A program made the position numbers and the translations under genes. A DNA stretch of 64,000 bases from Candidatus Omnitrophota bacterium (lineage in GTDB: Bacteria; Omnitrophota; Gorgyraeia; Gygaellales; Profunditerraquicolaceae), in the NCBI GenBank assembly GCA_023227985.1, contig JALOCB010000003.1, forward strand, positions 5,260 through 69,259, in the 5' to 3' direction. The notes beneath the pieces were generated by a model that was not told where the DNA came from, did no database searches, and was given only the letters and a program-made list of their open reading frames with translations. Positions 1 to 31,688 of this stretch are shown here, one piece after another (the first letter of the stretch is position 1; each line of letters opens with the position of its first letter).

Positions 1-3
1 AGA

Positions 4-4767: not shown

Positions 4768-4773
4768 CATTCT

Positions 4774-4828
4774 CAAGACCCGGTCTTGCATCCCAATGAG
4801 TCCTAATGGGTTGCAAGACCGGGTCTTG
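4774..4828. repeat. Paired palindromic motif CAAGACCCGGTCTTG ... CAAGACCGGGTCTTG. It forms a ~22-bp stem hairpin 7 nt after the stop of giant gene 1.
   Basis: caagacccggtcttgca-tcccaatgagtcctaatggg-ttgcaagaccgggtcttg. The arms are reverse complements, and each 15-mer is itself a near-palindrome. No U-tract follows. Confidence 0.75.
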
Positions 4829-4925
4829 AACATGTCTTTATATGAATAAGATAAATCCGTTTCAATTTAAAAACCGCAACAGGCAGAAGTTGTAATTTAA
4901 TTCAAATCATCAACCGGAGGGAAAA

Positions 4926-7900
4926 ATGTTCGTAAGGTTATCCCAAAACAACCTGTTCAGGAAGATCGTCGGCATTCTTATTCTTTTACAATTTTCAGCC
5001 GGTTTTGCCGTGATTAGGGGTTATGCTGCTCCCGGAAATTTGCGGCCTGCCGCCGTCAAACAGGATGGTTCCCGGTCCGGGACTATCCAGAATTCGCTTG
5101 ACGCGGCCAGCCTGGATAAGGTTATAAAAACCCCGGTCATTCATAAGGACGGCGGTATAACCGGCCAGGATGTTTTTAAGAATATCCTTGGCGAATACCG
5201 TGTTTCCTCCACGATAAACAATCTCGCTTTCGGGACGTTCGTCCAGGGGCAGATCGACCTTAGTTCGGTTCAGAACCGGGAAGCGCTGGTCAATAATTTC
5301 GGGGAGATTAAGAGCAAAGATCGTTTTTTTACCCTTGAATACGCGGGAATTCCGCTTGCCCTGGTCAAGAAGGCCGAAACCGGAGAAATTACCGTCAAGA
5401 AAGTAGTCGAAGACATTGCTTCGATCCCGCTCAACATCCTTTCCGACAATGCCGAAAAGCTCAAAACCGAAGGTGTTACTTCCTCGGATATCCTGGTCCG
5501 CGATTTTCTTATCCTTGAAAAAAGGTCGCGTATCGACATCACTCAGTGCATGACCGTAGAGTTTGGCGAGCTGCGCGACTACGTATACAATCTGGCTAAA
5601 AATGTCGGCCAGGAAAAGGCACTGGAGATGGCATCGGCGTTTGCGGGTAAGGCTACCGTTGACGAGGCTATGGCGGAAGTCGGCGAGAAAGCTAAGCAGT
5701 TAGGCCGCGACCAAGCGAAGGACACAGGTCTGGCGCTGGCCGGCGGTAAGGGTTTGAGCCTTTCGGTCATGAGCCGCGTGGTTGACGTGCCGCCTGGTTT
5801 GAACGTTACTACTACCGCGTATTTTAAGTTCGTCAAAGATAATAAACAGGTCTGGGAGAAGATCTTTAATGAGCTGCAGACCTTGGATACTATGGATGAC
5901 CAGAAGCGCGACGTTGTCACTTCGGAGATCCGCGATGTCATTAAAAGCGCGCCGATACCCGAAGACATCAAGGCTGAGGTAACAGCAATGTACCACCAGC
6001 TAAGCGTTATCCGTTTTCTTGCCGGTAAACCTTCGCCCGCTCCGGTGGCTGTCCGCTCTTCCGGCACCAAAGAGGATATTCACGTTAAAACCTGGCTGCC
6101 GGTTTCCACCGGTTCCCAGGCCGGCCAGTCGGATACATTCCTTAATGTTAAGGGCGAACGGGATGTCCTGGATAAATTACGCGCCGATTGGGCGTCTTTA
6201 TTTACCGATCGCGCGGTCAGCTACCGTGATGACGCCACCTTCTTGCAGTTCTCTGGAGCCATCGATTTTAACGGTAAGACTTCTCAGGATGTCTATTGGG
6301 GGATCGTGGCGAAGCTTCGGGAATACTCCAAGAAACTGGATAAGCCTGAATATAACGTGTACGCTGACTTAATGAGTAAAGTCACCAGCCCTAACCCTGG
6401 GTCGGTGAGCCTGATGAACGCCATGGAGGAGATCCTGAGACAGGAATCGAATCCGGAGATGTCCAATGCCCTTGCCGTTCTGAAGAAGAAAGCAGAGGAG
6501 GTTGTGCATCCCGAACAGATCGGTATCGACGTTGTGATCATGCAGATGGCTAAGAGTTATCTTGCCGGCGTGCTTTTTACCGTCAATCCGGCGACCAAGA
6601 TGGCCGGTGTGGCCCAGTCGTTATACAAGTCATGGTATATGGGTGATGATTCGCTCGTGTACCGCGACGCGAAGACCGATATTATCCAGGGAACCAGGCC
6701 CATAGTGGTGAGCTTTGATGTGGCCTTCGGCTACGGCGAGAACGTAGTCGGCGGCAAGGTAAACCCGGACAAGTTCATTATGGGCACCTACGACGGCGAG
6801 AGCTGGTTTGTTATCGAGAAAAGCAAAGGCAATAAACTTATTCAGATGAAGGACGTGGAAGAAGTCATCGATCTCCTCAAAGACAAGATATCGGAAAAGG
6901 GCCAGCGGCAGCTCGCTATGACCGTGAAAGACGCGATCGCGTATGATGAGGTCGGCAAGCGGATCAACGGCATTATGGCGACCAAACTCTACGGTATCAA
7001 GTATCTTAAGGCGCTTGAGGGTAAAGAGGAAAGCGATAAAGACAAGAAGGCCCGCGTACAGGCTATCGCCAATGAGATTGCCGACATGGTCAAGAATAAG
7101 GTTTCCGAGGATGAAGTTGTCGCGTTCATCAAGGGTAACTTTGAGGTCGTTAACCGGAAGGGCTATAAAGGCATTCAGGAAATGGCGCTTTCGGGAGTGG
7201 TCAGGGAAGTGTTTGAGAAAGTCCAACAGGCCCAGGCTGAGACCGACCGGGGTATGTTTAAACTCTCAAAGCAGCTCGGCGATATGGGAAAGGCCGATAC
7301 GCTTATCCATATGATCAAGGAGGTTTGGGAGAATAAGGAATTTACTCTTTCCGACCGCCAGGCGATTCTTGACAAACTGAACCTTACCAACCAGGAATTG
7401 CGTAATATGAGTTACCTTATCCGCGCGCTGGTGGATAATAGCTTTACTTCAAATTATGAGACTACTTTAACCCACCAGGATACCTTTACTATGACCGATG
7501 ATCAGGCCCAGTATGTGGCGCGTATGGGTTGGGCGATCACCGAATATTATAAGGATGCCCGAGATATAGAGTATGCCATCGAGATAGATAAAACCGCTTC
7601 TTCCGACAAAGCGGTGAGGCTTTACGTTGTGGACGACCTGGGCAATGTCCAGGGAATGGACAATAATGGCAACCTGGTAACGGTGAAGTCCGAAAAGGAT
7701 AAAGCGCGTATAAAAGAAGCGAAGCTGCGCCTGTATAACGTGCAGGCCCGTCCGTATACCGCGGAATACTTGAAGGTGGATGTAATGCGCGCCCGGACCG
7801 AAGCGGATGAAAAGTGGCTTGAGGAGAATTCTCCTAAAGCGATTGCCAGCGGGACTAAGGGAGAGAACGCGACGCAGGGTTATGTGCTGGTGTTCGATCC

Positions 7901-10900
7901 TAACAAAGACGTTGCCTGGCACGCGGACCAGATCCGTCGTTTGAAAGCCGGAGATTTTACTGCGGAGGAAAAAGCCCAGATCATGGCTATGGGGTTTAAT
8001 CCCGAAGAGTATGGTTCAGGCAAAGAAAAGCAATTGTCGGTTATTCTTTATCTGCTTGAAGCTGACCCGAATCATGATCCGATCATGCGCCTGGTTGATT
8101 CGGTTGTTACTATCCGCGGCGGCGATACCTGCCACGCGGCTATCTTTTGCCGTGAACAAGGGATCCCTGCGGTCACCGGCGCGGGCAAGGTTATACTCAA
8201 CGGCCAATTGCTTAAGACCGGTGACGCGGTTACCGTTGATGCTAATAACGGGAATATTTACGAAATGCCCGCTGATGCCGGAGCGCGCATTCCGATCAAC
8301 TACGTGAAATTCAAGATTAAACCGTATGGCATCCCCGGCGACGACGACAATATGCCGTATCCGGGCATCGGCCAGATCATCGCCGCGGCAAGTGCCGCTC
8401 AGCAGAACTCGCCTATTATGCTTGCGGTTGACGCGGTCGGTAACTCGCTGACCCGCGCCGAGTTCAAAGGCGAAGAGATCGGTATCAACGTTTACGCCGG
8501 CTATGGCCATTATCTTTTACAGCAGATCAAGGCCGGAAAAATAAAGGAGCCAGTGAGGGTGCGTGTCCAGGAATTGATCCAGGGCAAGGTTCCCGGCGCA
8601 AAGAGGTTCGTGGACAATATTGAAAATGTTATGGCAGGCGCTTTTGCCAAGGATCCCGCCGCGCGTTCGGCATATCGCGACATTATGGGTAAGGATTTCA
8701 ATAAGGCGGATAGCCTGCAATTGCTGGAGTTTTTCGATTTGAAGAGCGACATTGAGCTGTATGGATTGGATGCGCTTAAACTGGTAAAACAGCAGGTTGA
8801 TATTCTTGATCTCGTTCCCCGGCTTCCGGAGAATATGTATCAGACGCTTGAATATCTTTATGGCGCCACTCAGCGCAGGCTCAACTATGATTATAATATT
8901 ATCGCCGATCTTCAGAACCATCCGTGGATACTGAAAGAAGTCGATTCTAAACTCGCGGAAAAGGGTTACGCGACGTTCAAGGAATACATCACTAACGAAT
9001 TCCTGTATTTTTACAATTTGATGGGTTTTACCATTGCGCCCGATCAGACCGCCAAGAACAGGGCTTACGATTTCGCCCAGGATAAGATCCGCGGCATGCC
9101 CGGTTCCGAGGTTTTTTCCTGGCCCGGAGTCAATCCGTTGGTCGGTTTGCGCGGTACGTCGTTGGAGATCGAGGCCTTTGACGAAGATTTCGGCGGCAAT
9201 CAGCTGGTATTGGATTTTCTTTTTGATTCCGTGATCCAGGCGCACCAGAATACCGGTAACCAAGCCTGGTTTTATGTGTTTGTCCGTTCTTCCCGGGAGT
9301 TAGAGACCCTGGATAAGATCATTGAGCACAAGGCTAAGCAGACCGGGAAGCTTCCGAAAGAGATCGGGATCATGATCGAAGTTCCCAGTGCCGCTTTGGT
9401 GGCTGATGAGCTTGCTGTTAAGATGTCCGAGATGGAGAAAAAATATAAGAAGTATGGCGTTGAGCATACTTTCTTTTCCTTCGGCACTAACGACTATTCG
9501 CATCTTGCTGGTATGGGTGACCGTGAAGACCCGCGAATGAAACTCAAGATTATGGATCCCGCAGCGATCGAAGCGATCGGCGAGATGAAAGCAGCGGGGT
9601 ATTATTATGATGATGCTGCTAAAGTGCTTCCGTTGATTGATGAAGGCGCTGATGTTATGCAGCAGCTTATGGAAACAGTGGTTGCTGCGGCTAATGGTTC
9701 AAGCGTGGCTACCTCGCTTTGCGGCGAGGCGATCACCGCCCTGGTTAACCGCGGGGATTATGAGACCGCAGGCAAGATAATGGCGCTTCTGGATTCTTTC
9801 GGCGTGAGCATGATGAAAGTCCGCCTCGCAGCTTCAATGACGCGCGTGGACACCATGGCGGCTACCAAAGGGATCACCATTCCGGAAGCCGGACGTTCGA
9901 TCCTGTTCGATTTGTCTGCCGGCGAGGTGAAACAGAAAAAGGGCGTCATCAAGGGCGAGATAATATTCGTTGATAATGCCGATGATCTCGTCCCGAACGT
10001 CCTTAAAGGCCTTCAGGGTCCGGAGCTGACGAAAAAGAAAGAGATGTTCAAGCTCCAGAGCCTGGAAAACGCCCGTTCGACTATGCGTACCTTCAATAAG
10101 ATCGTAATTATCACTAAAAACCTCGTTGCTCAGCAGGAGCCTGAGTTGGTCGCGGAGATGGGCAAAGCCGCATTCAGCAAGTTTGTCAATGACGGCCTGC
10201 TTAAAGATATCGGTAATGGGCAGTATGTCTGGACGAATCTGGGTGTAAAGACGGAGAAGTTCAACCAGGAATTGACAATTCAAGGTTTCTCTGAAAAAGA
10301 ACGTAAAGCTATTGAAGGTTTGTGGCAGAAGGCCTGGGATAACAGCATTGAAGGGCTTGAGCGCCGCGGAATTGATTGGGATGATCTACAATATGCCAAG
10401 GCTATAATCGTTGATGCGGACGTTAACCTTGATGGCTGGGATGTGTTCCGCAAGGACAAGAGTATTATTCCGACCCGTATCAAGGCTACGGTCAAAGGTA
10501 TAAGCTCCCGCCGTGCGGAGTTAGAAGGGCAATTGGCAACTATAGATTACGCCGCTAAGAAGGTCTACAAGGATTTTCTCAGCGTGGAAAAGATCGCTGC
10601 CGTCCTGCGCAGTCTTCCTATCCCAGCGGAAAAGCCTATGATAACTACGCAATCGGCTGTCGCGGAGAACGCCAACAGTGTATACCAGAAGATCGGGTAT
10701 CATCCTAAGCTCCTTCTTGCCTATGAGCGGAATGCTGTGAATGAACTTGGAAAGATATTCGAGGAATATGTAGGCAAGCTGGTTGAAGAAGTTGAAAAAG
10801 TTACTCAGGAGACCGACGTTCAGAAACGCGTATGGCTTTTACAGAAACTGCAGAATAAAGTTGGCGGGCTTGCGGAACCGATGATCAAATCGTTTATGAG

Positions 10901-12698
10901 CGATGTGCTTTCCGAGGCCATGCGCACAGGTGCGGTAACGCTGCCGGATAACTGGAACAAGAAGCTTTGGGAGGCCTATCGCAGCGACCTGGAAAGCGAG
11001 ATCAGTAAGATCCTTAACGGAAAGACGGTTGAGCAGTATTTTATCGCGCAGTTCAGCGAACAGATGAAGGAAGTGCTCTCCGCCAACAAAGGGGCATTGG
11101 TTGTCCATCTTTTGGGAAGCCTCAACTGTGTTGATTTCTTTAATATGAAAGGCGGTTTCCTGGTTGAACAGGTCAATCCCAACCCTGATTACGGCATTCT
11201 TGGAGCGGCGCGCGCAATAGGGGATATGTGGGAGATAAACCGCATGGAATTGTCCGCTTTTAAGGCGGTATGGGATAATCTGCCGGTTGACCAGCGCGGT
11301 AATTTTGGCCTGCAGATCACCAATCTCAAAGGCACCCAGTCCGGCGCGGTGGTGATCGGCTGGCGTAATATTCTGAAACAAACCGGTATTATCCCGGGGC
11401 AAGACGGTTTGCAGGTTGGCGTCAATATCGTCACTCCGGCGGATAGCATCGCTGCGGATAAGTATTTTGAGTACTTTAATACGCTCGGAAGCGGGTTAAG
11501 TTTTATCTCATATGATGCGTTGAAGCTTGGCGCTGCCTGGGCCGGCGTGGATATTTTTTGGAAGGAATGGAGGAGGCTGGCTAAGGAAGATGAGTTGTTG
11601 AGGTTCGGCGTCATGACCGGCTGGATGGCGGAAGCCAAGGCTCTGAGGTTCGGCGGCAAAGTCCTTTCCTTTGATATTTCTGACGAAGCCAAACAGACTG
11701 ACGGCGGCGCTGAGGTTGTGCCTTACCGGGTAGTGGTGGAGAATCTCTTCCGGGGGATCATTAAGAAATATGATGCTTTGGATAACGGCCAAGCTCTTTC
11801 TCTCGAAAAAGAAGAGTTGGAGGCAATACTCTGGATCTTGAATTCTTCTCCTTTTGAGAATATGTCAAGCCCGTTTGCCGCGATCAAGAGTATGAAGAAT
11901 ATCAGGAATGTGATCGAAAGGCTCAGCGATGACCAAAAGAAGGCCCTAAGTGTACTTTCACAGGGCTTGGTTTTTGTCAATCACGGGCTGGATAAAAAGG
12001 TGGCGGCATTGCTCGTAGACAAGAAGTTGCTCGACACCGCATATGAATCCGACACGGCGGTATATAAAGGGTTGAACAGCGGTTTTGACAGCTTCGCCAA
12101 TGCCTTGAAAGAGGTTAAGAATGCCGAGGGCGCTTTAGTGGTTAGCGCAAATGCTGTGTTGAATAACGCCGGAACGCTGAGAGTCCTGAGAGAAATAAAA
12201 GAAACCGGGCTGACCTTGGAAATAATCGTCCGGGCTGATACGGAAGATCAGGTGAATAAGCTGATTGCCCTTCGGGCAGACGAAGTCGCGACTATCCAGG
12301 CCAAGCGGCTGTCAGTTGTGCTCAGCGGCTTGAAGAACGCGGGTATAACCGATGGCAAGATAGTGGTGATTAAAGGCAAAGAAGAAGTAAAAGACGCGGT
12401 AGAAGCCGGCGTAAAGGTCGTAGAGATCTCCATGCCTAAAACAGAGGAGTCCAGTATCAACTCCATGGCCTTAGTTGCGGCAAAAGCGGTAATCATAGTG
12501 TTAAATGGTGAAGAAACGGTTGCCGCGCAATACCGGGAAATGGCGGTAAAATACGCCGCAGATAACAGCGTAACCTCTGAAGAATTGGATGATCTGCAGG
12601 ACCTGACCAGCCAGATCTCGGAGATACCCATGGCCAAGGTCAGCGAAGAAGTCGCTAAGGCGCAGGCCACTTATGAGGAGACTATAAGCAAGATATAA
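4926..12698 (+). CDS. Giant 2590-aa protein: N-terminal hydrophobic anchor/signal + pyruvate phosphate dikinase/PEP synthase-like enzyme + ~900 aa unassigned region + conserved C-terminal module
   Basis: RBS ggaggg lies 6 nt upstream of the ATG. N-terminus has the hydrophobic stretch IVGILILLQFSAGFAVI followed by RGYAAPGNLRPAAVK. PPDK N-terminal domain: GGKGLSLSVM...VPPGLNVTTTAYFKFV and VAVRSSGTKED...NVKGERDVLDKLRADWASLFTDRAVSYR. Phospho-His swivel motif: RGGDTCHAAIFCREQGIPAVTG. PEP-utilising TIM barrel: IGIMIEVPSAALVADE...FFSFGTNDYSHLAGMGDRED. The C-terminal ~190 aa are closely related to the C-terminus of the previous gene. Confidence 0.8.
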   Translation: MFVRLSQNNLFRKIVGILILLQFSAGFAVIRGYAAPGNLRPAAVKQDGSRSGTIQNSLDAASLDKVIKTPVIHKDGGITGQDVFKNILGEYRVSSTINNLAFGTFVQGQIDLSSVQNREALVNNFGEIKSKDRFFTLEYAGIPLALVKKAETGEITVKKVVEDIASIPLNILSDNAEKLKTEGVTSSDILVRDFLILEKRSRIDITQCMTVEFGELRDYVYNLAKNVGQEKALEMASAFAGKATVDEAMAEVGEKAKQLGRDQAKDTGLALAGGKGLSLSVMSRVVDVPPGLNVTTTAYFKFVKDNKQVWEKIFNELQTLDTMDDQKRDVVTSEIRDVIKSAPIPEDIKAEVTAMYHQLSVIRFLAGKPSPAPVAVRSSGTKEDIHVKTWLPVSTGSQAGQSDTFLNVKGERDVLDKLRADWASLFTDRAVSYRDDATFLQFSGAIDFNGKTSQDVYWGIVAKLREYSKKLDKPEYNVYADLMSKVTSPNPGSVSLMNAMEEILRQESNPEMSNALAVLKKKAEEVVHPEQIGIDVVIMQMAKSYLAGVLFTVNPATKMAGVAQSLYKSWYMGDDSLVYRDAKTDIIQGTRPIVVSFDVAFGYGENVVGGKVNPDKFIMGTYDGESWFVIEKSKGNKLIQMKDVEEVIDLLKDKISEKGQRQLAMTVKDAIAYDEVGKRINGIMATKLYGIKYLKALEGKEESDKDKKARVQAIANEIADMVKNKVSEDEVVAFIKGNFEVVNRKGYKGIQEMALSGVVREVFEKVQQAQAETDRGMFKLSKQLGDMGKADTLIHMIKEVWENKEFTLSDRQAILDKLNLTNQELRNMSYLIRALVDNSFTSNYETTLTHQDTFTMTDDQAQYVARMGWAITEYYKDARDIEYAIEIDKTASSDKAVRLYVVDDLGNVQGMDNNGNLVTVKSEKDKARIKEAKLRLYNVQARPYTAEYLKVDVMRARTEADEKWLEENSPKAIASGTKGENATQGYVLVFDPNKDVAWHADQIRRLKAGDFTAEEKAQIMAMGFNPEEYGSGKEKQLSVILYLLEADPNHDPIMRLVDSVVTIRGGDTCHAAIFCREQGIPAVTGAGKVILNGQLLKTGDAVTVDANNGNIYEMPADAGARIPINYVKFKIKPYGIPGDDDNMPYPGIGQIIAAASAAQQNSPIMLAVDAVGNSLTRAEFKGEEIGINVYAGYGHYLLQQIKAGKIKEPVRVRVQELIQGKVPGAKRFVDNIENVMAGAFAKDPAARSAYRDIMGKDFNKADSLQLLEFFDLKSDIELYGLDALKLVKQQVDILDLVPRLPENMYQTLEYLYGATQRRLNYDYNIIADLQNHPWILKEVDSKLAEKGYATFKEYITNEFLYFYNLMGFTIAPDQTAKNRAYDFAQDKIRGMPGSEVFSWPGVNPLVGLRGTSLEIEAFDEDFGGNQLVLDFLFDSVIQAHQNTGNQAWFYVFVRSSRELETLDKIIEHKAKQTGKLPKEIGIMIEVPSAALVADELAVKMSEMEKKYKKYGVEHTFFSFGTNDYSHLAGMGDREDPRMKLKIMDPAAIEAIGEMKAAGYYYDDAAKVLPLIDEGADVMQQLMETVVAAANGSSVATSLCGEAITALVNRGDYETAGKIMALLDSFGVSMMKVRLAASMTRVDTMAATKGITIPEAGRSILFDLSAGEVKQKKGVIKGEIIFVDNADDLVPNVLKGLQGPELTKKKEMFKLQSLENARSTMRTFNKIVIITKNLVAQQEPELVAEMGKAAFSKFVNDGLLKDIGNGQYVWTNLGVKTEKFNQELTIQGFSEKERKAIEGLWQKAWDNSIEGLERRGIDWDDLQYAKAIIVDADVNLDGWDVFRKDKSIIPTRIKATVKGISSRRAELEGQLATIDYAAKKVYKDFLSVEKIAAVLRSLPIPAEKPMITTQSAVAENANSVYQKIGYHPKLLLAYERNAVNELGKIFEEYVGKLVEEVEKVTQETDVQKRVWLLQKLQNKVGGLAEPMIKSFMSDVLSEAMRTGAVTLPDNWNKKLWEAYRSDLESEISKILNGKTVEQYFIAQFSEQMKEVLSANKGALVVHLLGSLNCVDFFNMKGGFLVEQVNPNPDYGILGAARAIGDMWEINRMELSAFKAVWDNLPVDQRGNFGLQITNLKGTQSGAVVIGWRNILKQTGIIPGQDGLQVGVNIVTPADSIAADKYFEYFNTLGSGLSFISYDALKLGAAWAGVDIFWKEWRRLAKEDELLRFGVMTGWMAEAKALRFGGKVLSFDISDEAKQTDGGAEVVPYRVVVENLFRGIIKKYDALDNGQALSLEKEELEAILWILNSSPFENMSSPFAAIKSMKNIRNVIERLSDDQKKALSVLSQGLVFVNHGLDKKVAALLVDKKLLDTAYESDTAVYKGLNSGFDSFANALKEVKNAEGALVVSANAVLNNAGTLRVLREIKETGLTLEIIVRADTEDQVNKLIALRADEVATIQAKRLSVVLSGLKNAGITDGKIVVIKGKEEVKDAVEAGVKVVEISMPKTEESSINSMALVAAKAVIIVLNGEETVAAQYREMAVKYAADNSVTSEELDDLQDLTSQISEIPMAKVSEEVAKAQATYEETISKI
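12130..12698 (+). repeat. Copy B of the duplicated C-terminal-module segment (paired with 4190..4767)
   Basis: See copy A. The two copies can be aligned codon by codon. Confidence 0.7.
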
Positions 12699-12704
12699 TA
12701 TATT

Positions 12705-12758
12705 GAGGCCGGGTCTTGTAACCGATTCAAACGCAAGGGAATACAAGACCGGGTCTTG
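12705..12758. repeat. Second occurrence of the (G)ACCGGGTCTTG palindromic motif pair, 7 nt after the stop of giant gene 2 and abutting the RBS of giant gene 3
   Basis: gaggccgggtcttgtaaccgattcaaacgcaagggaatacaagaccgggtcttg. Same core motif and same two-copy architecture as at 4774..4828. Confidence 0.7.
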
Positions 12759-12778
12759 ATAATTAGAGGAGGGAAAAG

Positions 12779-15700
12779 ATGTCCAGGCCGTCTAAAAACA
12801 ATAGTATCTCTAAAATAATTTCCGGCGTTGTGATCGCGCAATTTATCATGAGCAGTATAGCCCTGCGCGGTTATGCCGGCACAGACAATTTAAGGCCGGC
12901 TCCGGTCAAAGATTCCGACCGGATAAGCGTTCTGGCCGATGAATTGCAGAAAGACGGCGGCAAACTGGCTGAATGGATCCATATCTTAGCGGAAAATACA
13001 ATTGTGGGCGATGCCGCTAAAGGTTCGAACGTCGGCATGGTCATACGGCTGGGAAAGCTTGTTGAAGAGAATATATCCGGGTCCATATTAGGGCATTCGG
13101 CAAACCGGAAGGCGTATATAAAGGAAGTGGGCGCTCAAATCGCTGAAGGGCTGCGTTTGACCGGAATGGAAGAAAAGGCGATCGCGGCTGCCAGCCGCAA
13201 GATAGCTTTTTCCAGATACGATAACATCATGAATCACCGGATCCAGGCGATGTTTCAAGCAGGGATCAGGGAGATCTGCCTTTGCGTAGGCAGTGATAAG
13301 GATAAGCTCACCGTTGAGGAAGAGATATCGGATGTGCTTGCGCAGTTGCAGGTGTCTTTTGCCGATGTCTCTTTGGAACAAATAAAAAAGATAATTTTCC
13401 ACGTGGCTTGGGAGCCTGCGGCGAATATCGGCACCGGTACTGCTGTCGGTCCGGAAAAGATCAAGCTGGTCCATCAGGCTATCTATGAATTCTTTGCCGA
13501 GAAGTATAATACACCCTCCGGGTATATCGGCGATGTTTGGGGGAAGTCATTGAAAATACTTTACGGCGCAAGCGTTGACGGAAAGAACGTCGACGGCATA
13601 ATGGCGGTGAAAGAGGATAAAGGCATGGCTTTGGTGCACGGCGTGTTATTCGCTTCTTCGGGTAAAAAGGCCGATGGCTTCCTGGCTGTGGCCGAGGGGG
13701 TTAGCCGCGCCGCGGAAAGGGATAACGCCCAGTATGTCTGTTTTGTCAACCTTAAGGAATTCGCCAGGGCTGAGAAAGATGAGGCTTTGACTTTTGTCGT
13801 CGAGATCGTCCGGGCCATTGCTTTAGGACGGATCGATCCCCGGCATACCATTCTGGCGATCGCTGACCAGGATGTACATCTAAAGGAGTGGCAGGACGCG
13901 ATCGTCGGCAGAAGCGTTTCGATGTCGGACGGCGGATACGCGTATGTTGAAGGAACGAACTTTAAGGACAAGAATGTGCTTTTTCGCCCGGATTATAACA
14001 CTCCGGCTTCGGTAAAGACCGATGATCAGGGTAATGTTTTGTCGATCAAAATATCCGACGCAAGCAGGATCGTTGATTCCTTCCCGGCTTTGACCAAGAT
14101 CCTGAAAGATAAGCCAAAACATGTGGTTGTCGTTGTCCATTTCGAACCTAAGGTGTTGAATCCCGCGACCGGTAAGAAAGACAAGAAAAATCTGTCTACT
14201 AAAGTCACAGCGGACAAACTTAAAGAATTGCTGCCGGCGGAATATAAAGATAAGGTAATATTCCTGGCTGATTCAGTCAATGACAATGGGATTGCCGCCG
14301 AAGCAATGCGGGCTATAGAAAGTTATACTGATTCCGAGATCATCGTATTGGAAAATATCCGTTTTGCCAAAGGCGAAAAGAAAGGTGCCCCCGAGCTTAA
14401 TGATCCTAAAGGTGTAGCTTTACGCAAACAGCTTTCAGGATTAGCGGACGAATATGTGGTGGATGCCTTGGGTAATATTCATCGCGCCCACGCATCAATG
14501 CTGCCTTTGCCCGGGGTGCATAAAGTCATGGGCAGTCTTGTGGAAAAAGAGATTAAAGTGTTCAACCGGATACTTAACCCGGCGCATCCTTATGCCGGGG
14601 TTAACGGCGGTAATAAGGTTGAAGATAAAGTGGATACCATGGATGTGTCTTTGTCGACGATGCAGGAAGGCGACGCGATCATCATCGGCGGGGCTATGGC
14701 CTACACTTTTTTAAAGGCGCAGGATCCAACATTGAAATTGGGCAAATCACTTGTTCAGGCGGATAAAGTTGATCTGGCTAAGACTATACTTGAGAAGGCC
14801 GCCCGGAAGAAGGTGCGGATAATCCTTCCAGTGGACCATCGCATCTCGGATAAACTCGCTCCCGGAGCAGCAGAATTGGTTACTGAGGGGCTGGAAGTGC
14901 CGGATGGGTACATGGCGGTAGATATCGGACCCAAGACTGAAAAAATAGTCGCCGAGGTCTTAAGTAATGCCCAGACCGCTTTTTGGAACGGCCCAATGGG
15001 CGCGTTCGAGGATGAGGCTGGTGGTTTTAATAAGGGGACTTATACGGTTGCCAGGGAACTGCAGAAAATGGGCAGGTCCGGACGCCTGGCCGGTATCGGC
15101 GGCGGGGAGACACGTATGGCAGCAATTAAGGCCGGGGTTACCGATGCTGACGGCGTGTTCATGTCCAGCGGCGGCGGTTCCACGCAGGAATATTTCGCCA
15201 AGAAAGGCAATCTCCCGGTGATCAAGAATCTGGAGAATGACGAAACCGCCCAGAAAAATCTCGTCCTCGCGGGGAAATTGGGGGTAGAACCCGCGGATCT
15301 GGCGCGTTTTGAAGCGGCAGACAGCAGTATTTATAATGCCTTGGGAGATAAACTTTTCAACGGCTATATATCTCAGGTCAGAAGGTTGCTTCCCAGGTTT
15401 TCGACAGGCCAGAAATTAAACGGCGCTCTGTCCAAAGCAGAGGTCTCTGCGGAGGTGATTAAAGATTCGCGCGGAAACAATACTGTCCGGGCAACTTTAA
15501 AGATCGGGGATATTGTTACTGTCGGCGAAGTCCCTGCAGGCGCTTCCAAAGGGGCAGCTGAGGCTTTTGCTTTTCCGCCGAAGGAAATAGATAGGGCGAT
15601 CGCCAACGTGGCGAAGATCCAGGAGATACTTAAGAACAGCGGCCTGGATATAAGCAAACACAGCGATCTGCGCAAGACGGAACAATTGATCATTGCCGCG

Positions 15701-17302
15701 GCCGGTGAAAACTTCGCGACACTGGGCGCGAACGCCACAGTCCCTATTTCCTGGGCCTTGTGGAGGATGGCGGCAGCGTTGAATAATATGGAACTCTGGG
15801 AATACATCCGGATCAATGAGCCGGGAGTTGTCGGTAATGATCCGGTTTATTTCTATATGAACATATATAACGGCGGGCTGCACGCTTCCGGAGGCGACGC
15901 TTCGGTATTGGGTACAGTTTGGACCGAATTCCAGGAGATGCTGATCGTGCCCGTGGGCGCTAAAACTCACGCCGAAGGCGTGGCTATGGGAGATAAGATC
16001 GACCAGGAATTGAAGAAAATACTGAAAGGTAAATTCGCGGAAGCGGATATAATGCGTAAAGATGAAGCTGGTTTCGCGGTCAAAGGCCTGGGAAAAAGCG
16101 AAGACGCGATCGCTTATGTGGTACAGGCGATCAGGAACGCCGGCTATGAGCCCGGTAAAGACGTAAAGCTGGCTTTGGATGTCGCCGCGACCTCTTTCTA
16201 CGACGAGAAAGAGAATATATACAAGTTCCAGGGCCAGAAATTGACCTCAGCCGAGATGGTCGATTTTTACGTCAAACTGGTAAAGCAATATGACGGCCTG
16301 TTCCTTTCTATAGAAGACGGCCTGGCTGAAGAAGATTGGCAGGGATGGGTAGAGCTAACCGCGGCTATGAAAGAAAAAGGCGTCCTGACTATAGGCGATG
16401 ATCTGTACGTTACCCAGCACGGCCGGTTGAACAAAGGGCTGGCGATGAACGCGGCTACAGCGATCCTGATCAAGGTTAATCAAAATGGGACCCTGGGCGG
16501 AACTATCGATGTTATGAAGACCGCCAAGGCCAATGGCATTAAAGCTGTGGTATCGCACCGTTCCGGAGAAACTCTGGATGCCGGGATCGCGGATCTGGCT
16601 TACGCAACCCGGGCGTTCGGGCTTAAAACCGGGGATCCTCAACCTTTGGTTGATTTCCAGAATCCGAACGAACTGGTGCGCCGGGCTAAGTATGACAGGA
16701 TGATCGAGATCCAGAAACAAGAAAACATCCAAAATGACCCGGCATTATCCAGGCCTAAAGCGCTGTTGATCAATGCGGATTTTTTCAAATCCGGCGCGGT
16801 TAAGAACGCTGTGGCGGAAATAGCGAGATTAAACGGGAATATCAATGTGGTGATCTACGGAGATAATGCCGAAAAGCTAAAGACGCTGGTAGGAAATCCC
16901 GATATTATCGCGGTGCGGAGTTTGACTGCAGCTGTCTCTGAAATAGCTAACCGCGGGGTAAAATCTTCTCAGGATGCCGTTATTTTGACGCCTATGCCGT
17001 ATAGCTCGGAAACGTTTATTGTTCAAATCCGCAGCGGAGAAATAAGCACGCTGGCTTTGGCCAAGGCGGTAAAGCAGTTATTCAAGAACGACCGGATCAC
17101 CGCGGCTATGGATGAATTCTATAAATCGCTGGTTGATAACAAAGTGGTTTCCGAGCAGGACTACATAAATACAAGGGAAAAAATCCTAACGGATCTGATC
17201 GACGGTGTTTACAACCTGGGTGAGATTAAGTTGACAAAACAGGTATCTGATGTTATAGAAAAGGAGCGGCTGGTAACCGAAGAGTTCGTGGGTAAAGTGT
17301 AA
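12779..17302 (+). CDS. Giant 1507-aa fusion protein: N-terminal anchor + triosephosphate isomerase + phosphoglycerate kinase + enolase domains
   Basis: RBS aggagg lies upstream of the ATG. N-terminus has IISGVVIAQFIMSSIALRGYAGTDNLRPAPVK, sharing the RGYA..NLRPA.VK motif with the previous gene. TIM domain: GHSANRK, AWEPAANIGTGTA, ILYGASVDGKN. PGK domain: ENIRFAKGEKKG, GNIHRAHAS, GGAMAYTFLKA, VDIGPKT, FWNGPMGAFE, GIGGGET. Enolase domain: IKDSRGNNTV, MLIVPVGAK, LALDVAATSFY, LSIEDGLAEEDW, IGDDLYVTQ, ILIKVNQNGTL, VVSHRSGETLD. Confidence 0.8.
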   Translation: MSRPSKNNSISKIISGVVIAQFIMSSIALRGYAGTDNLRPAPVKDSDRISVLADELQKDGGKLAEWIHILAENTIVGDAAKGSNVGMVIRLGKLVEENISGSILGHSANRKAYIKEVGAQIAEGLRLTGMEEKAIAAASRKIAFSRYDNIMNHRIQAMFQAGIREICLCVGSDKDKLTVEEEISDVLAQLQVSFADVSLEQIKKIIFHVAWEPAANIGTGTAVGPEKIKLVHQAIYEFFAEKYNTPSGYIGDVWGKSLKILYGASVDGKNVDGIMAVKEDKGMALVHGVLFASSGKKADGFLAVAEGVSRAAERDNAQYVCFVNLKEFARAEKDEALTFVVEIVRAIALGRIDPRHTILAIADQDVHLKEWQDAIVGRSVSMSDGGYAYVEGTNFKDKNVLFRPDYNTPASVKTDDQGNVLSIKISDASRIVDSFPALTKILKDKPKHVVVVVHFEPKVLNPATGKKDKKNLSTKVTADKLKELLPAEYKDKVIFLADSVNDNGIAAEAMRAIESYTDSEIIVLENIRFAKGEKKGAPELNDPKGVALRKQLSGLADEYVVDALGNIHRAHASMLPLPGVHKVMGSLVEKEIKVFNRILNPAHPYAGVNGGNKVEDKVDTMDVSLSTMQEGDAIIIGGAMAYTFLKAQDPTLKLGKSLVQADKVDLAKTILEKAARKKVRIILPVDHRISDKLAPGAAELVTEGLEVPDGYMAVDIGPKTEKIVAEVLSNAQTAFWNGPMGAFEDEAGGFNKGTYTVARELQKMGRSGRLAGIGGGETRMAAIKAGVTDADGVFMSSGGGSTQEYFAKKGNLPVIKNLENDETAQKNLVLAGKLGVEPADLARFEAADSSIYNALGDKLFNGYISQVRRLLPRFSTGQKLNGALSKAEVSAEVIKDSRGNNTVRATLKIGDIVTVGEVPAGASKGAAEAFAFPPKEIDRAIANVAKIQEILKNSGLDISKHSDLRKTEQLIIAAAGENFATLGANATVPISWALWRMAAALNNMELWEYIRINEPGVVGNDPVYFYMNIYNGGLHASGGDASVLGTVWTEFQEMLIVPVGAKTHAEGVAMGDKIDQELKKILKGKFAEADIMRKDEAGFAVKGLGKSEDAIAYVVQAIRNAGYEPGKDVKLALDVAATSFYDEKENIYKFQGQKLTSAEMVDFYVKLVKQYDGLFLSIEDGLAEEDWQGWVELTAAMKEKGVLTIGDDLYVTQHGRLNKGLAMNAATAILIKVNQNGTLGGTIDVMKTAKANGIKAVVSHRSGETLDAGIADLAYATRAFGLKTGDPQPLVDFQNPNELVRRAKYDRMIEIQKQENIQNDPALSRPKALLINADFFKSGAVKNAVAEIARLNGNINVVIYGDNAEKLKTLVGNPDIIAVRSLTAAVSEIANRGVKSSQDAVILTPMPYSSETFIVQIRSGEISTLALAKAVKQLFKNDRITAAMDEFYKSLVDNKVVSEQDYINTREKILTDLIDGVYNLGEIKLTKQVSDVIEKERLVTEEFVGKV

Positions 17303-17399: not shown

Positions 17400-18701
17400 A
17401 TGTTAAGGCGCATCAGGACAATTAAAAAAAAGGTTAAAATCATATTCTGCGCGGCAGCCGCGGTTTGTGCGGTTGTGTGTTTTTTACCGGTAACCTGCCA
17501 GGCGGGTATGGCGGGTAGTGAACAGATAAGCGCGCTAAGCTTAAAAGGCATCCAATGGGAGAGCCTGCCGGGCGGGGGGACGCGCTTAAAGATCTTTGCT
17601 GACGGCTTAAAGGCCGGAAGGTTTGAGCCATTGATCGATCCGGAAGAGTCCGGGCGCAGGTTAATGGATTTTTTTATCCTGGGTTTGAATGTCCGGGAAG
17701 ACAAATTCTGGGCCAATCTTACTCCCGGCGATCCGGATAATATCATTGACCCGGATTTGGCCGGGACGCCCTTAGGCGAGGTTATGCTCAGGGCGGACCT
17801 GAGATTGAAAAAAGATTTCTGTGAATTGACCAACCCGCAGTTTTCCCAGCCCGGCAAAAAATACTGGGCAGCCTTATCGGAAAAAGCGGCGGAACTGGGC
17901 ATTAAGAAAATACCCGCGATGAACCGCGTGTGGATAGTCCCGGAAGAGGCTGCGGTTTATGAGGCCGGAAACGGGGCTTATATAACCGAAAGCCGGCTTA
18001 AGGTCTGCCTGAAAATAAATTATTCAGCCGGTCTTCTTAAGGACGGCGGCGGTAAGGCGTACGGCGAACTTTCGGAGTATGCCGGAGAATTGGTAAGGGA
18101 TATTATTTTGCCTGAATTGGATAAAAGGGTTAATGAGGATTTCCTCTATGCTGACCTGAGGCAGGTAAATAGGGCATTGATACTGGCCAGATGGTATAAT
18201 AACAAATTCGGCGATGGCGGGGGATTTAATTTAAAAAATACCCTGACAGCATCGAGCCGGCCTGAGATAAACGCGGGCTTGCTAAAGAAACAGATATATG
18301 ATGATTACATGGATTCTTTGAGCAATGGCGAATATGTGGTCGTCGGGCCGTCAGGCTGGTCCAGCGCATTGGATTATTTAAGGCCTAAGAAACGTTATAT
18401 CAGCGGAGGTGTTGATTTGCGCAAAAGTCCGGCAAGGCGCAGCCCGGCGCCTGCGGCAGCCTGGCAAGGCCGGGATCCGCAGTTTACATTTTTAGTGGAA
18501 ATATCCGCGCAGGCAGTTATGTCCGCGGGAGATAAAAATAATGCGATAAATGATTTTTCCGTCATAGGAAATATCGGGGATAATAATGTAGAAGGGCTAA
18601 TCCGGGATTTGCCGGGAATATCGCCTTCGCGTAATAACCGGGATGCGGAAACCGATATAAATAAAGGCGTTATAAGCGATATGGTATTATATAGTTTATA
18701 A
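17400..18701 (+). CDS. Hypothetical secreted/membrane-anchored protein (433 aa)
   Basis: Long ORF with coding-like composition. N-terminal hydrophobic segment IIFCAAAAVCAVVCFLPVTCQAG. No recognisable catalytic motif. Confidence 0.5.
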   Translation: MLRRIRTIKKKVKIIFCAAAAVCAVVCFLPVTCQAGMAGSEQISALSLKGIQWESLPGGGTRLKIFADGLKAGRFEPLIDPEESGRRLMDFFILGLNVREDKFWANLTPGDPDNIIDPDLAGTPLGEVMLRADLRLKKDFCELTNPQFSQPGKKYWAALSEKAAELGIKKIPAMNRVWIVPEEAAVYEAGNGAYITESRLKVCLKINYSAGLLKDGGGKAYGELSEYAGELVRDIILPELDKRVNEDFLYADLRQVNRALILARWYNNKFGDGGGFNLKNTLTASSRPEINAGLLKKQIYDDYMDSLSNGEYVVVGPSGWSSALDYLRPKKRYISGGVDLRKSPARRSPAPAAAWQGRDPQFTFLVEISAQAVMSAGDKNNAINDFSVIGNIGDNNVEGLIRDLPGISPSRNNRDAETDINKGVISDMVLYSL

Positions 18702-18826: not shown

Positions 18827-19549
18827 ATGGACATAAAAGAACGCAGGCAGGCAATAAGGTGGCAAATAAACAGCCCCGGGCAAATTGTTCTGGAGGACTG
18901 CCGGGCGTTAGTTAATTGCACTATACTTGATATAAGTTACCGGGGGGTCCAGGTATTGCTGGATAAACCTCTGGAGAATACCAAGTTATTCAAGATCAGC
19001 GTCGTACTTTCCGAGGAGTGCTACCTGGACAGCATCGACCTGCGCAGCGTCTGGCACAGGAAGGTTCCGGAAGGCGAGCTTTACGGCTTGTATTTTAACC
19101 GCATAAAAGACATAGATAAAGAGAAGATCTACAAATTTGTCTTTAAGCACGCACCAAGGCAAATACATCAACAGTGGTGGCAGGAATCTGACAAGGGGGG
19201 GGGTGAATCAATGGAAGATATGGGGACCAACGACAAGAGAGTCTTTGCGCGGTTTCCGGTGCAGATGGCTTTGAAATTCATTGATCTATTATCCAACAGG
19301 GAAGGCCAGGCGCATGCTTATGATATCAGCGCCAAGGGTTTGGGATTTATGGCGACCGAGGAATTAAAACCGCTTACACCGTTGGAGATGTGGCTACAGG
19401 TCCCGGATAAAGGGGAGCCGCTTTATACCAGAGGTGAAGTAGTCTGGTCAGAGATGGTCGAACCTAATAAATACAAGGCCGGGATCAATCTGGAAAGAGC
19501 GGACCTGATGGGTGTTTCCCGGGTTTTAAGGACCCTCAATACGATATAG
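18827..19549 (+). CDS. Tandem PilZ-domain protein (c-di-GMP receptor)
   Basis: Two copies of the PilZ signature. First: RRQAIRW ... DISYRGVQV. Second: KRVFARFPV ... DISAKGLGF (RxxxR ... D-x-S-x-x-G). Confidence 0.7.
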   Translation: MDIKERRQAIRWQINSPGQIVLEDCRALVNCTILDISYRGVQVLLDKPLENTKLFKISVVLSEECYLDSIDLRSVWHRKVPEGELYGLYFNRIKDIDKEKIYKFVFKHAPRQIHQQWWQESDKGGGESMEDMGTNDKRVFARFPVQMALKFIDLLSNREGQAHAYDISAKGLGFMATEELKPLTPLEMWLQVPDKGEPLYTRGEVVWSEMVEPNKYKAGINLERADLMGVSRVLRTLNTI

Positions 19550-20996: not shown

Positions 20997-21006
20997 GGTT
21001 TAGCCA

Positions 21007-21921: not shown

Positions 21922-21925
21922 AAAA

Positions 21926-30126: not shown

Positions 30127-31688
<1,562 letters not shown>

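What the first reader, a model, noticed from the sequence alone, without database searches (positions are those of the whole stretch)
4926..13000. Shared N-terminal hydrophobic anchor and (L/I)RGYA(A/G)xxNLRPAxVK motif on the giant enzymes
Giant genes 2 and 3 both begin with a ~20-aa hydrophobic segment (IVGILILLQFSAGFAVI / IISGVVIAQFIMSSIAL). Each is followed by a nearly identical motif: RGYAAPGNLRPAAVK in gene 2 and RGYAGTDNLRPAPVK in gene 3. Cytosolic glycolytic enzymes do not normally carry signal or anchor sequences. A conserved post-anchor motif suggests a common targeting, processing or tethering mechanism for the megaproteins, for example membrane tethering or export to a compartment.
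Basis: seen in the sequence. Interest (0 to 1): 0.75.

Follow-up and report, generated by a model that had tools for sequence, protein, structure and literature searches.

The report
Shared export-type leader on glycolytic megaproteins
Every giant fused glycolytic enzyme in this Omnitrophota gene cluster begins with the same signal-peptide-like leader plus an "LRP" box and ends with the same unknown C-terminal module, so a whole sugar-breakdown pathway looks earmarked for a common membrane or export route, which is very unusual for these normally cytosolic enzymes.

Summary
Genes 2 and 3 start (strong Shine-Dalgarno sites) with a basic n-region, a 17-residue hydrophobic core, R-G-Y-A, then NLRPAxVK. 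The missing 5' end of gene 1, recovered from the source contig, carries the same design (…MAAA|GIVSSSNLRPKAV…KDGG).

A profile of this module finds 77 protein clusters among 1.84 billion representatives. Nearly all match at residue 1, and every locus with an organism label is Omnitrophota.

Full-length members carry EMP or sugar-metabolism enzymes: GPI, PFK, FBA, TIM, GAPDH, PGK, iPGM, enolase, PPDK. They almost always end in a second shared module, a HAD-like fold without the catalytic DxD motif, with a conserved free C-terminus (…EFMxKV / …YEETISKI).

The "RGYA" part is best read as a signal-peptidase-I c-region (Ala at -1 in 55/65 members). The truly conserved box is [D/N]-x-L-R-P, 4–7 residues later, often followed by a short helix and DGG.

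The proteins are specifically about 6-fold depleted in cysteine. No Pfam or NCBIfam model and no paper I could search describes the tag.

Best reading (confidence about 0.5): a lineage-specific Sec-type leader plus sorting box that exports these enzymes. Main rival: an uncleaved tether holding a cytoplasmic metabolon. Localisation needs experiment.

The parts
1..4767 (+). Giant gene 1, 3' 1588 codons (class-II aldolase halves, PFK, GAPDH, CT module). Its first 85 codons lie upstream of the window and carry the same leader.
4201..4764 (+). C-terminal (CT) module of gene 1, ending ...YEETVNKI
   Evidence: CT HMM E=3.4e-40; 47% identical to the g2 CT
4767..4835 (+). Intercistronic RNA hairpin built from two copies of the palindrome CAAGACC(C/G)GGTCTTG
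   Evidence: dG -44 kcal/mol, z -9.9
4916..4920 (+). Shine-Dalgarno GGAGG of gene 2
4926..12698 (+). Giant gene 2 (2590 aa): leader, PPDK/PEP-synthase-like domains, 755 aa without a Pfam hit, CT module
4926..5027 (+). g2 signal-peptide-like segment, aa 1-34: n-region MFVRLSQNNLFRK, h-region IVGILILLQFSAGFAVI, c-region RGYA (predicted SPase I site after A34)
5037..5060 (+). g2 LRP box NLRPAAVK (aa 38-45)
5148..5156 (+). g2 DGG that closes the leader (aa 75-77)
11700..11708 (+). g2 internal DGG (aa 2259-2261), about 115 aa upstream of the CT module
12111..12695 (+). CT module of gene 2, ending ...YEETISKI
   Evidence: CT HMM E=1.4e-41
12701..12761 (+). Second intercistronic hairpin carrying the same palindrome
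   Evidence: dG -28 kcal/mol, z -5.9
12768..12772 (+). Shine-Dalgarno GGAGG of gene 3
12779..17302 (+). Giant gene 3 (1507 aa): leader, TIM, PGK, enolase, CT module
12779..12877 (+). g3 signal-peptide-like segment, aa 1-33: MSRPSKNNSISK / IISGVVIAQFIMSSIAL / RGYA
12887..12910 (+). g3 LRP box NLRPAPVK (aa 37-44)
12953..12961 (+). g3 DGG closing the leader (aa 59-61), preceded by the short helix RISVLADELQK
13928..13936 (+). g3 DGG at the TIM|PGK junction (aa 384-386). Its position is conserved in most of the aligned g3 orthologues while the flanks diverge.
16742..17299 (+). CT module of gene 3 (HAD-like alpha/beta core, helices, terminal helix ending ...EEFVGKV)
17400..18701 (+). Conserved ~400-aa protein with an N-terminal signal/lipoprotein-like segment, always downstream of the cluster. 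Function unknown.
18827..19549 (+). PilZ-domain protein, conserved in synteny
19680..25086 (+). Sugar ABC importer (lipoprotein SBP plus two permeases) and a signal-peptide-bearing GH2-like protein, conserved in synteny
30393..31658 (-). Leaderless canonical enolase (421 aa). It is a second enolase, 36% identical to the g3 enolase domain.

Best explanation
The N-terminal element is a lineage-specific, extended Sec/SRP-type signal sequence followed by a conserved sorting box. It forms the front half of a two-ended tag that marks every polypeptide of an Omnitrophota glycolysis (EMP) gene cluster.

SHOWN:
(1) The module has this layout. The n-region is about 13 aa with net charge +3. The core is 15-17 hydrophobic residues with an invariant Phe. 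A helix-breaking S/P follows, then small-[Y/F]-Ala. The box [D/N]-x-L-R-P-x-A begins 4-7 residues later. A short amphipathic helix and K/R-DGG often follow.
(2) It is strictly N-terminal.
(3) Each separate gene product has its own copy.
(4) It co-occurs with a ~190-215-aa C-terminal module. That module has a HAD-like fold, has lost the catalytic DxD motif, and ends in a conserved free C-terminus (…EFMxKV-COOH).
(5) The cargo between the two ends is EMP or sugar-metabolism enzymes, and their catalytic motifs are intact where I checked.
(6) These proteins are selectively depleted in cysteine.

INFERRED:
- The leader takes the nascent megaprotein to SecYEG.
- Signal peptidase I cuts after …(S/G/A)-Y-A.
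- The LRP box then lies near the new N-terminus, its Leu at about +5 or +8. Together with the helix and DGG it acts as a post-export sorting, retention or maturation signal.
- The C-terminal module, with its free C-terminal peptide, docks the enzymes to each other or to a common partner.
- The result is an extracytoplasmic (periplasmic or surface) multi-enzyme assembly.
For: - Layout and conservation.
- Family statistics: Ala at -1 in 55/65 members; S/A/G/V at -3; predicted leader length 34 aa; N-flank more positive than C-flank in 49/66; the Leu of LR sits 4 or 7 residues after the predicted site.
- Ordinary exported proteins of the same window end their signal peptides in the same way, for example MAYA|Q, GAYA|A and GFA|Q.
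- There is only one hydrophobic segment per giant protein.
- Profile search: 77 clusters at E<=1e-3 among 1.84e9 representatives. Matches start at residue 1-3, or at an internal Met where the gene call was over-extended; one hit looks spurious.
- Per-polypeptide rule: every gene of the cluster carries both modules in L014, L005, L006 and L008-L012. Only g1-g3 carry them in 87 kb of this contig.
- Pairing with the CT module and the enzyme cargo.
- Cysteine: 0.19% in the giants against 1.21% in the other window proteins, Fisher p=2e-14. Only Cys is affected. The family-wide figure is 0.26% over 103,000 residues. The neighbouring 14,046-aa giant has 2.16%.
- A leaderless canonical enolase and apgM coexist in the window. 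This fits two sets of enzymes working in two places.
- Published topology predictions also place metabolic domains of Omnitrophota giant proteins outside the cytoplasm (10.1101/2023.11.21.568195; 10.64898/2026.06.07.730766).
Against: - PFK, GAPDH, PGK and PPDK need ATP/ADP, NAD+ and PPi, which a periplasm normally lacks.
- The cluster is conserved next to a sugar ABC importer, and a cytoplasmic ROK kinase lies in the window. That arrangement suggests these enzymes process imported, cytoplasmic sugar.
- A published survey detects PFK in complete Omnitrophota genomes only at relaxed thresholds. The tagged enzymes may therefore be the only copies.
- A basic residue at -4 (RGYA/VRSYA) and the conserved K-x17-R spacing with an interfacial Tyr also fit a stable transmembrane anchor.
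- Cleavage and export were not predicted with a dedicated tool (none was available) and have not been measured.
- No partner for the LRP box or the CT module was identified.
Confidence: 0.5

Rival explanations
1. Cytoplasmic-face tether. The hydrophobic segment is an uncleaved N-terminal membrane anchor. The conserved basic residues after it (R of RGYA, R of LRP, K) act as the positive-inside determinant. The enzyme domains therefore stay in the cytoplasm and form a membrane-bound glycolytic metabolon beside the sugar importer. The CT modules hold the polypeptides together.
For: - Cofactor logic: the enzymes depend on ATP, NAD+ and PPi.
- Synteny with the ABC sugar importer, the GH2-like protein and PilZ is conserved across distant Omnitrophota.
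- A ROK kinase and a LacI regulator lie in the window.
- The K-x17-R spacing and an Arg/Tyr pair sit at the end of the hydrophobic core.
- Catalytic motifs are intact over deep divergence.
- PFK is found only at relaxed thresholds in complete genomes.
Against: - The N-flank carries +3 and is more positive than the C-flank in 49/66 members. That predicts N-in/C-out.
- The -3/-1 small-residue pattern is conserved, which an anchor would not need.
- A 6-fold, Cys-specific depletion has no obvious reason in a cytoplasmic protein.
- Leaderless enolase and apgM already exist.
Confidence: 0.25
2. Uncleaved type II signal-anchor. The leader inserts N-in/C-out but is not cut, so the megaproteins are displayed on the outer face of the cytoplasmic membrane. 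The LRP box acts as a juxtamembrane spacer or recognition site.
For: - The uncharged stretch is 17 residues, at the long end for signal peptides.
- A basic residue at -4 is unusual in cleaved c-regions.
- Charge bias and Cys depletion fit an outside location.
Against: - Ala at -1 and small residues at -3 are conserved family-wide.
- The same xYA ending occurs in ordinary signal peptides of the window.
- The g3 core is only marginally hydrophobic for a stable transmembrane helix (mean Kyte-Doolittle 1.72 over 19 residues).
Confidence: 0.15
3. Double-glycine-type leader. The functional unit is the whole segment up to DGG. A C39-like peptidase, of the kind reported inside Omnitrophota giant proteins, removes it. 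The same peptidase also cuts the inter-domain DGG sites and releases single enzymes from the polyproteins. This could act in addition to Sec export.
For: - DGG lies within the first 100 aa in 41 of 72 members, preceded by an amphipathic h-x-x-h-x-x-E-L helix.
- DGG is position-conserved at the TIM|PGK junction and before the CT module while its flanks diverge.
- C39 domains are reported in Omnitrophota giants (10.1101/2023.11.21.568195).
Against: - Beyond residue 100, DGG is not enriched overall (39 observed, 35.5 expected).
- The spacing differs from the LSxxELxxIxGG consensus (my knowledge of class II bacteriocin leaders).
- Classical GG leaders have no hydrophobic core.
- No C39 or ABC-exporter gene was detected in the parts of the 87 kb that were annotated.
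- Many members lack DGG.
Confidence: 0.08
4. No specific feature: two ordinary signal peptides that resemble each other by composition, or mis-called start codons.
For: Signal peptides are compositionally similar in general.
Against: - Pairwise E=3e-11.
- An independent hit on g1 at E=7.6e-11.
- 77 N-terminal hits tied to one cargo class and one C-terminal module.
- Strong SD sites at both starts.
- Other signal peptides of the window do not match.
Confidence: 0.02

Closest known systems
Specialised conserved signal peptides of very large exported proteins: ESPR of autotransporters/TpsA (Pfam PF13018) and the YSIRK-G/S signal of Gram-positive surface proteins
   Same: Longer than usual (about 34 aa). 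Sequence is conserved inside the n- and h-regions. Restricted to one class of very large proteins in one lineage. Presumably tunes the targeting of cargo that is hard to export.
   Different: No sequence match to either family (Pfam and NCBIfam scans). The cargo is globular metabolic enzymes, not beta-helical adhesins. There is an additional conserved LRP box after the predicted cleavage site.
Cellulosomal enzyme architecture (signal peptide, variable catalytic domains, C-terminal dockerin)
   Same: A constant N-terminal export signal and a constant C-terminal module frame interchangeable catalytic domains. Many paralogues exist per genome and are encoded in clusters. This suggests assembly on a common partner.
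   Different: The C-terminal module is HAD-like, not a dockerin. No cohesin-like scaffold was identified. The cargo is intracellular-type EMP enzymes, not glycoside hydrolases.
Glycosome targeting in kinetoplastids (PTS1 C-terminal tripeptide / PTS2 N-terminal peptide on glycolytic enzymes)
   Same: A whole glycolytic pathway carries shared terminal targeting tags. The free C-terminus here (…S-K-I, …T-K-V, …G-K-V) superficially resembles S-K-L.
   Different: This is an analogy only. The organism is a bacterium with no known peroxins. The N-terminal tag is a hydrophobic Sec-type signal, not PTS2. No compartment is known.
Omnitrophota giant proteins ('archaeovorins', West-Roberts et al. 2023 preprint; 2026 complete-genome preprint)
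   Same: Same phylum. Fused FBA, PPDK, PGK and TIM domains. Predicted signal peptides or TM segments. PilZ genes downstream. One such giant (>14,046 aa) lies just upstream of this cluster.
   Different: Those papers describe proteins of 10,000 to over 100,000 aa and their Pfam content. They do not describe this leader, the LRP box, the CT module or the Cys depletion. The tail of the neighbouring giant has neither module and is Cys-rich.
Fused glycolytic enzymes such as the PGK-TIM fusion of Thermotoga maritima (from my own knowledge)
   Same: Consecutive EMP enzymes on one polypeptide.
   Different: The Thermotoga fusion is cytosolic, with no signal sequence and no shared terminal modules.

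Membership tests
Sec-type signal peptide cleaved by signal peptidase I | Positively charged n-region at the extreme N-terminus | tested here: met
   The n-region is about 13 aa with median net charge +3. All credible profile hits start at the protein N-terminus.
Sec-type signal peptide cleaved by signal peptidase I | Hydrophobic h-region of roughly 7-15 residues | tested here: inconclusive
   The core is 15-17 residues between flanking K and R. That is the upper end for signal peptides and the lower end for transmembrane anchors.
Sec-type signal peptide cleaved by signal peptidase I | c-region with small neutral residues at -3 and -1 | tested here: met
   Position -1 is Ala in 55/65 members and -3 is S/A/G/V. 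Bona fide exported proteins of the window have the same xYA| ending.
Sec-type signal peptide cleaved by signal peptidase I | Actual cleavage and translocation | not testable with these tools
   Needs N-terminomics or reporter fusions. SignalP and DeepTMHMM were not available.
Lipoprotein (SPase II) signal | Lipobox L-[AS]-[GA]-C | tested here: not met
   The g2 and g3 leaders contain no Cys. The g1 Cys lies inside the hydrophobic core.
Tat signal peptide | Twin-arginine S/T-R-R-x-F-L-K motif | tested here: not met
   The n-regions carry dispersed K/R and no RR-x-F-L-K.
Type IV pilin-like (class III) signal | G/A | F/M-T-L-x-E before the hydrophobic stretch | tested here: not met
   No Gly-Phe junction and no Glu at +5.
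ESPR / YSIRK conserved signal peptides | Match to the Pfam/NCBIfam models | tested here: not met
   No hit even at E<=10.
Double-glycine (C39/PCAT) leader | GG at the leader end, with hydrophobic residues at -4, -7 and -12 | tested here: inconclusive
   DGG follows an amphipathic helix in many members, but the spacing is one residue shorter than the consensus, -4 is Lys, and many members lack DGG.
Double-glycine (C39/PCAT) leader | Cognate C39-peptidase ABC exporter encoded nearby | tested here: not met
   None was detected in the parts of the 87 kb of this contig that were annotated, nor in the flanks of L005-L007 and L014.
HAD superfamily (for the C-terminal module) | Rossmannoid HAD fold | tested here: met
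HAD superfamily (for the C-terminal module) | Catalytic motif I, DxD at the end of strand 1 | tested here: not met
   Strand 1 reads ALLINADFF, ALVVSANAV or LIIGANTVF, with no conserved Asp pair. There is no Pfam HAD hit.
Dockerin (cellulosome) | Dockerin type I repeat (PF00404) | tested here: not met
   No Pfam hit in any CT module.

The most novel reading that the evidence does not exclude
Omnitrophota run a complete EMP pathway outside the cytoplasm, either in the periplasm, on the cell surface or at the contact with prey. A dedicated two-ended address tag delivers and assembles it: a conserved Sec-type leader with an LRP box at the front, and a HAD-like C-terminal docking module with a conserved free C-terminus at the back. 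This would be a bacterial counterpart of the glycosome, or a 'glycolytic cellulosome'.
Probability: 0.3. Interest if true: 0.92.

Novelty: new variant of a known kind. Interest (0 to 1): 0.75.

Why it matters
Glycolytic enzymes are the textbook cytosolic proteins. When they turn up on bacterial surfaces it is usually called moonlighting and happens without signal peptides.

Here, a whole phylum of ultra-small, possibly predatory bacteria encodes the entire pathway as large fused proteins. Each one carries the same conserved export-type leader, the same C-terminal module and a secretion-like cysteine depletion.

If the enzymes really leave the cytoplasm, current metabolic reconstructions of Omnitrophota are wrong about location, because they count these genes as ordinary cytoplasmic glycolysis. 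The predator's feeding mechanism would also need rethinking.

If the enzymes are tethered on the cytoplasmic face instead, this is a genetically hard-wired membrane metabolon.

Either way, the tag gives a precise, searchable handle: two HMMs and a predicted cleavage site. Existing proteomes and simple reporter fusions can test it.

Tried and rejected
- **Word-index protein searches:** searches with the N-module alignment A2 and the CT alignment A4 returned almost nothing. The exhaustive HMM search was what worked.
- **GTDB genome scan:** The narrow A7 scan returned only 5 loci, all Omnitrophota.
- **Family and structure libraries:** Pfam, NCBIfam and PDB-sequence searches gave no hit for the leader, the CT module or the conserved downstream ~400-aa protein.
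- **Structure of the downstream protein:** single-sequence AF2 failed (pLDDT 35). An alignment including orthologues from other loci was not accepted. The afdb50 fold library was unavailable.
- **Literature:** Kizina et al. 2022 (PMC9004380), the paper most likely to hold proteomic evidence, is not in the library.
- **DGG as a general inter-domain signal:** it is not enriched overall after residue 100. I keep it only as a position-specific observation.
- **Missing mutase as an argument for the cytoplasm:** I considered that the lack of a phosphoglycerate mutase in the tagged set points to a cytoplasmic location. I rejected this because other Omnitrophota have leader-tagged iPGM.
- **Other signal types:** lipoprotein, Tat and pilin-type signals were rejected on sequence.
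- **Cluster-member look-up:** it gave no names or taxonomy.

Full report
**What is in the window.** Three co-directional giant genes occupy the first 17.3 kb.
- g1 (1..4767, 5' end cut by the window) encodes class-II aldolase, PFK and GAPDH domains.
- g2 (4926..12698, 2590 aa) encodes a PPDK/PEP-synthase-like enzyme plus 755 aa without any Pfam hit.
- g3 (12779..17302, 1507 aa) encodes TIM, PGK and enolase.

The nearest database protein, 99% identical to g3, is labelled Candidatus Omnitrophota. The window is part of a 137-kb ENA metagenome contig. On that contig the cluster follows a >14,046-aa giant gene.

**The observation.** It is correct at the stated coordinates.
- g2 starts MFVRLSQNNLFRK-IVGILILLQFSAGFAVI-RGYA-APG-NLRPAAVK.
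- g3 starts MSRPSKNNSISK-IISGVVIAQFIMSSIAL-RGYA-GTD-NLRPAPVK.

Both ATGs are the first starts of their ORFs and lie 6-7 nt after GGAGG. The two N-termini align with E=3e-11. The motif codons differ between the genes, so selection acts on the peptide. The motif is absent from the rest of the six-frame translation.

I recovered the missing start of g1 from the source contig. It reads MFARNGKTSVLVMVCFAVIGIFLFASMAAAGIVSSSNLRPKAVGNSDEAKAIQSDLFINKDGG. An HMM built without this sequence detects it at E=7.6e-11.

**How far it extends.** Homologues of g3 down to 30% identity share the design. A 64-position profile of the module (A2) was searched exhaustively against 1.84 billion representative proteins. 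It found 77 clusters at E<=1e-3 and 11 at E<=1e-10.

Apart from one spurious repetitive hit, the matches begin at residue 1-3, or at an internal Met where the gene call was over-extended. The broad consensus is MFxQFxKKTLFSKxISGxVAVSFIxTSVPVRSYA, then 0-6 residues, then [D/N]-[K/N/S]-L-R-P-x-A. RGYA is therefore a clade-specific version of the c-region. The invariant features are a Phe in the core, small-[Y/F]-Ala, and L-R(-P).

Every locus that carries an organism label is Omnitrophota. One homologue (P0010) is labelled Deltaproteobacteria by NCBI, probably a binning error.

**A two-ended tag.** The last ~190-215 residues of g1, g2 and g3 are homologous. g1 and g2 are 47% identical there, and g3 is more distant.

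Local BLAST and HMM searches show that full-length leader-bearing proteins almost always end in this module. Between the two ends they carry variable combinations of enzymes: GPI, PFK, FBPase, FBA, DeoC-type aldolase, TIM, GAPDH, PGK, iPGM, enolase, PPDK, PGM/PMM and aldose epimerase. Single-enzyme versions exist (leader-PGK-CT, leader-ENO-CT), and so does a leader-CT-only protein.

In five other Omnitrophota contigs, every gene of the tandem cluster has its own leader and its own CT module. In a close relative, an extra 454-aa gene is just leader plus spacer plus CT. In the 87 kb available from this contig, only g1-g3 have either module.

Most members stop exactly six residues after a conserved [E/K]-[F/T] position, giving …EFMxKV-COOH or …YEETISKI-COOH. 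This suggests the free C-terminus matters.

**What the leader looks like mechanistically.** Across 66 N-termini:
- the n-region is about 13 aa with net charge +3;
- the uncharged stretch is about 20 residues, with a 15-17-residue core;
- position -1 is Ala in 55/65 members and -3 is S/A/G/V;
- the N-flank is more positive than the C-flank in 49/66 members;
- the predicted leader length is 34 aa;
- the Leu of LRP lies 4 or 7 residues after the predicted cut.

Ordinary exported proteins of this window (a GH2-like protein, binding proteins) have shorter signal peptides that end the same way, xYA| or xFA|. Each giant has only this one hydrophobic segment. Lipobox, twin-arginine and prepilin features are absent. 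By the standard rules this is a long Sec/SPase-I signal peptide. The LRP box would then lie near the mature N-terminus, which is typical of sorting or retention signals.

After the box, many members have an amphipathic h-x-x-h-x-x-(D/E)-L helix and then (K/R)-DGG.

**An independent signature.** The three giants contain 11 Cys in 5,684 residues (0.19%). The other proteins of the window have 1.21% (Fisher p=2e-14). The depletion is specific to Cys. The ratio is 0.13 against cytosolic proteins and 0.18 against signal-peptide proteins of the window, while all other residues lie between 0.46 and 1.5.

The depletion holds family-wide, at 0.26% over 72 proteins. It is not a property of giant proteins as such, because the neighbouring giant's tail has 2.16%. 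From general knowledge (not checked here), low cysteine is characteristic of bacterial extracellular proteins and of proteins secreted unfolded. I count this as support for an extracytoplasmic fate.

**What argues the other way.** The enzyme domains look functional. The enolase and PGK catalytic motifs are intact. These enzymes need ATP/ADP, NAD+ and PPi.

The cluster is conserved, in the same order, upstream of four other genes:
- a ~400-aa unknown signal-bearing protein;
- a PilZ protein;
- a sugar ABC importer;
- a GH2-like protein.

This order holds in organisms whose g3 orthologues are only 31-42% identical. A ROK kinase and a LacI regulator also lie in the window. This reads like a sugar-utilisation unit whose glycolysis should be cytoplasmic.

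A basic residue at -4, the constant K-x17-R spacing and an interfacial Tyr would also suit a permanent anchor. A leaderless canonical enolase (36% identical to the tagged one) and a leaderless apgM also lie in the window. That is what one would expect if tagged and untagged enzymes work in different places, but I could not survey a whole genome.

**DGG.** DGG closes the leader in 41 of 72 members. It is position-conserved at the TIM|PGK junction and before the CT module in several lineages, while the flanking residues diverge. Overall it is not enriched beyond residue 100 (39 observed, 35.5 expected). I detected no C39 peptidase or ABC exporter nearby. Processing at DGG is therefore a minor hypothesis.

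**Literature.** Preprints on Omnitrophota giant proteins note FBA, PPDK, PGK and TIM domains. They predict signal peptides or TM segments, and they explicitly flag the extracellular prediction as uncertain. None of the papers I could search describes the conserved leader, the LRP box, the shared C-terminal module or the cysteine depletion.

**Verdict.** The finding is real, non-random and phylum-wide. It is part of a previously undescribed two-ended tag on EMP enzymes.

Most likely (about 0.5) the front end is a cleaved Sec-type leader with a post-cleavage sorting box, and it sends the enzymes out of the cytoplasm. A cytoplasmic-face tether (about 0.25) and an uncleaved outside anchor (about 0.15) remain open. 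Public proteomes and simple reporter fusions would decide between them.

Noticed in passing
window 4767-4835 and 12701-12761; also L013 17917-17929: Very stable intercistronic RNA hairpins built from the palindrome CAAGACC(C/G)GGTCTTG, placed immediately after the stop codons of g1 and g2 (dG -44 and -28 kcal/mol; z -9.9 and -5.9). The palindrome occurs 3 times in the window against 0.1 expected. Possible roles: mRNA processing or stabilisation, an attenuator, or a REP-like element.
   Followed up: partly
window 1-17302 (g1-g3) versus the rest of the window: Cysteine-specific depletion in the giants: 0.19% against 1.21% in the other window proteins. No other amino acid deviates by more than about 2-fold. 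The neighbouring >14,046-aa giant is Cys-rich (2.16%).
   Followed up: yes
window 10-369 and about 680-1300 (g1): The class-II aldolase domain appears with its halves in swapped order. Pfam positions 167-273 come first and positions 15-154 come about 100 residues later. This could be a circular permutation or two partial copies.
   Followed up: no
window 13928-13936, 11700-11708; P0001-P0010, P0014, P0016, P0018: DGG tripeptides sit at domain junctions (TIM|PGK, and before the CT module). Their position is conserved while the flanking residues diverge.
   Followed up: partly
window 17400-18701 (orthologues at L005 14724-15926, L006 18640-19890, L014 14634-15938): A conserved ~400-aa protein with a signal/lipoprotein-like N-terminus always follows the cluster. 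Its strongly conserved motifs include DKFWVNLNP…ADLRLKKD and VNED.LYADLR. It has no Pfam or PDB relative and no conserved Cys or His. It is a candidate partner of the tagged enzymes.
   Followed up: partly
window 30393-31658 (-) and 47544-48830 (+): A leaderless canonical enolase (next to an ftsB/DivIC-like gene) and a leaderless archaeal-type phosphoglycerate mutase coexist with the tagged enzymes. The window's tagged set shows no recognisable mutase, but other Omnitrophota have leader-tagged iPGM (P0029, P0038, P0054).
   Followed up: partly
L014 8595-9959 (P0031): A 454-aa family member consists only of leader, spacer and CT module. It carries two tandem LRP boxes (DNLRPAPVKNIGHLRPVAAKK).
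   Followed up: no
window 12950-13900 (g3 TIM domain): The N-terminal third of the TIM domain is too divergent for Pfam (only profile positions 94-242 match). The segment AENTIVG aligns with FAENFKVGG in relatives, so the catalytic Lys may be replaced in g3. The His and Glu motifs (GHSANR, WEPAANIGTG) are present.
   Followed up: no
L002 1-3054 and 3259-4788 (upstream of the window): The cluster lies directly downstream of a giant gene of more than 14,046 codons, truncated by the contig end, and a 509-aa protein with one N-terminal hydrophobic segment. Neither carries the leader or the CT module.
   Followed up: partly
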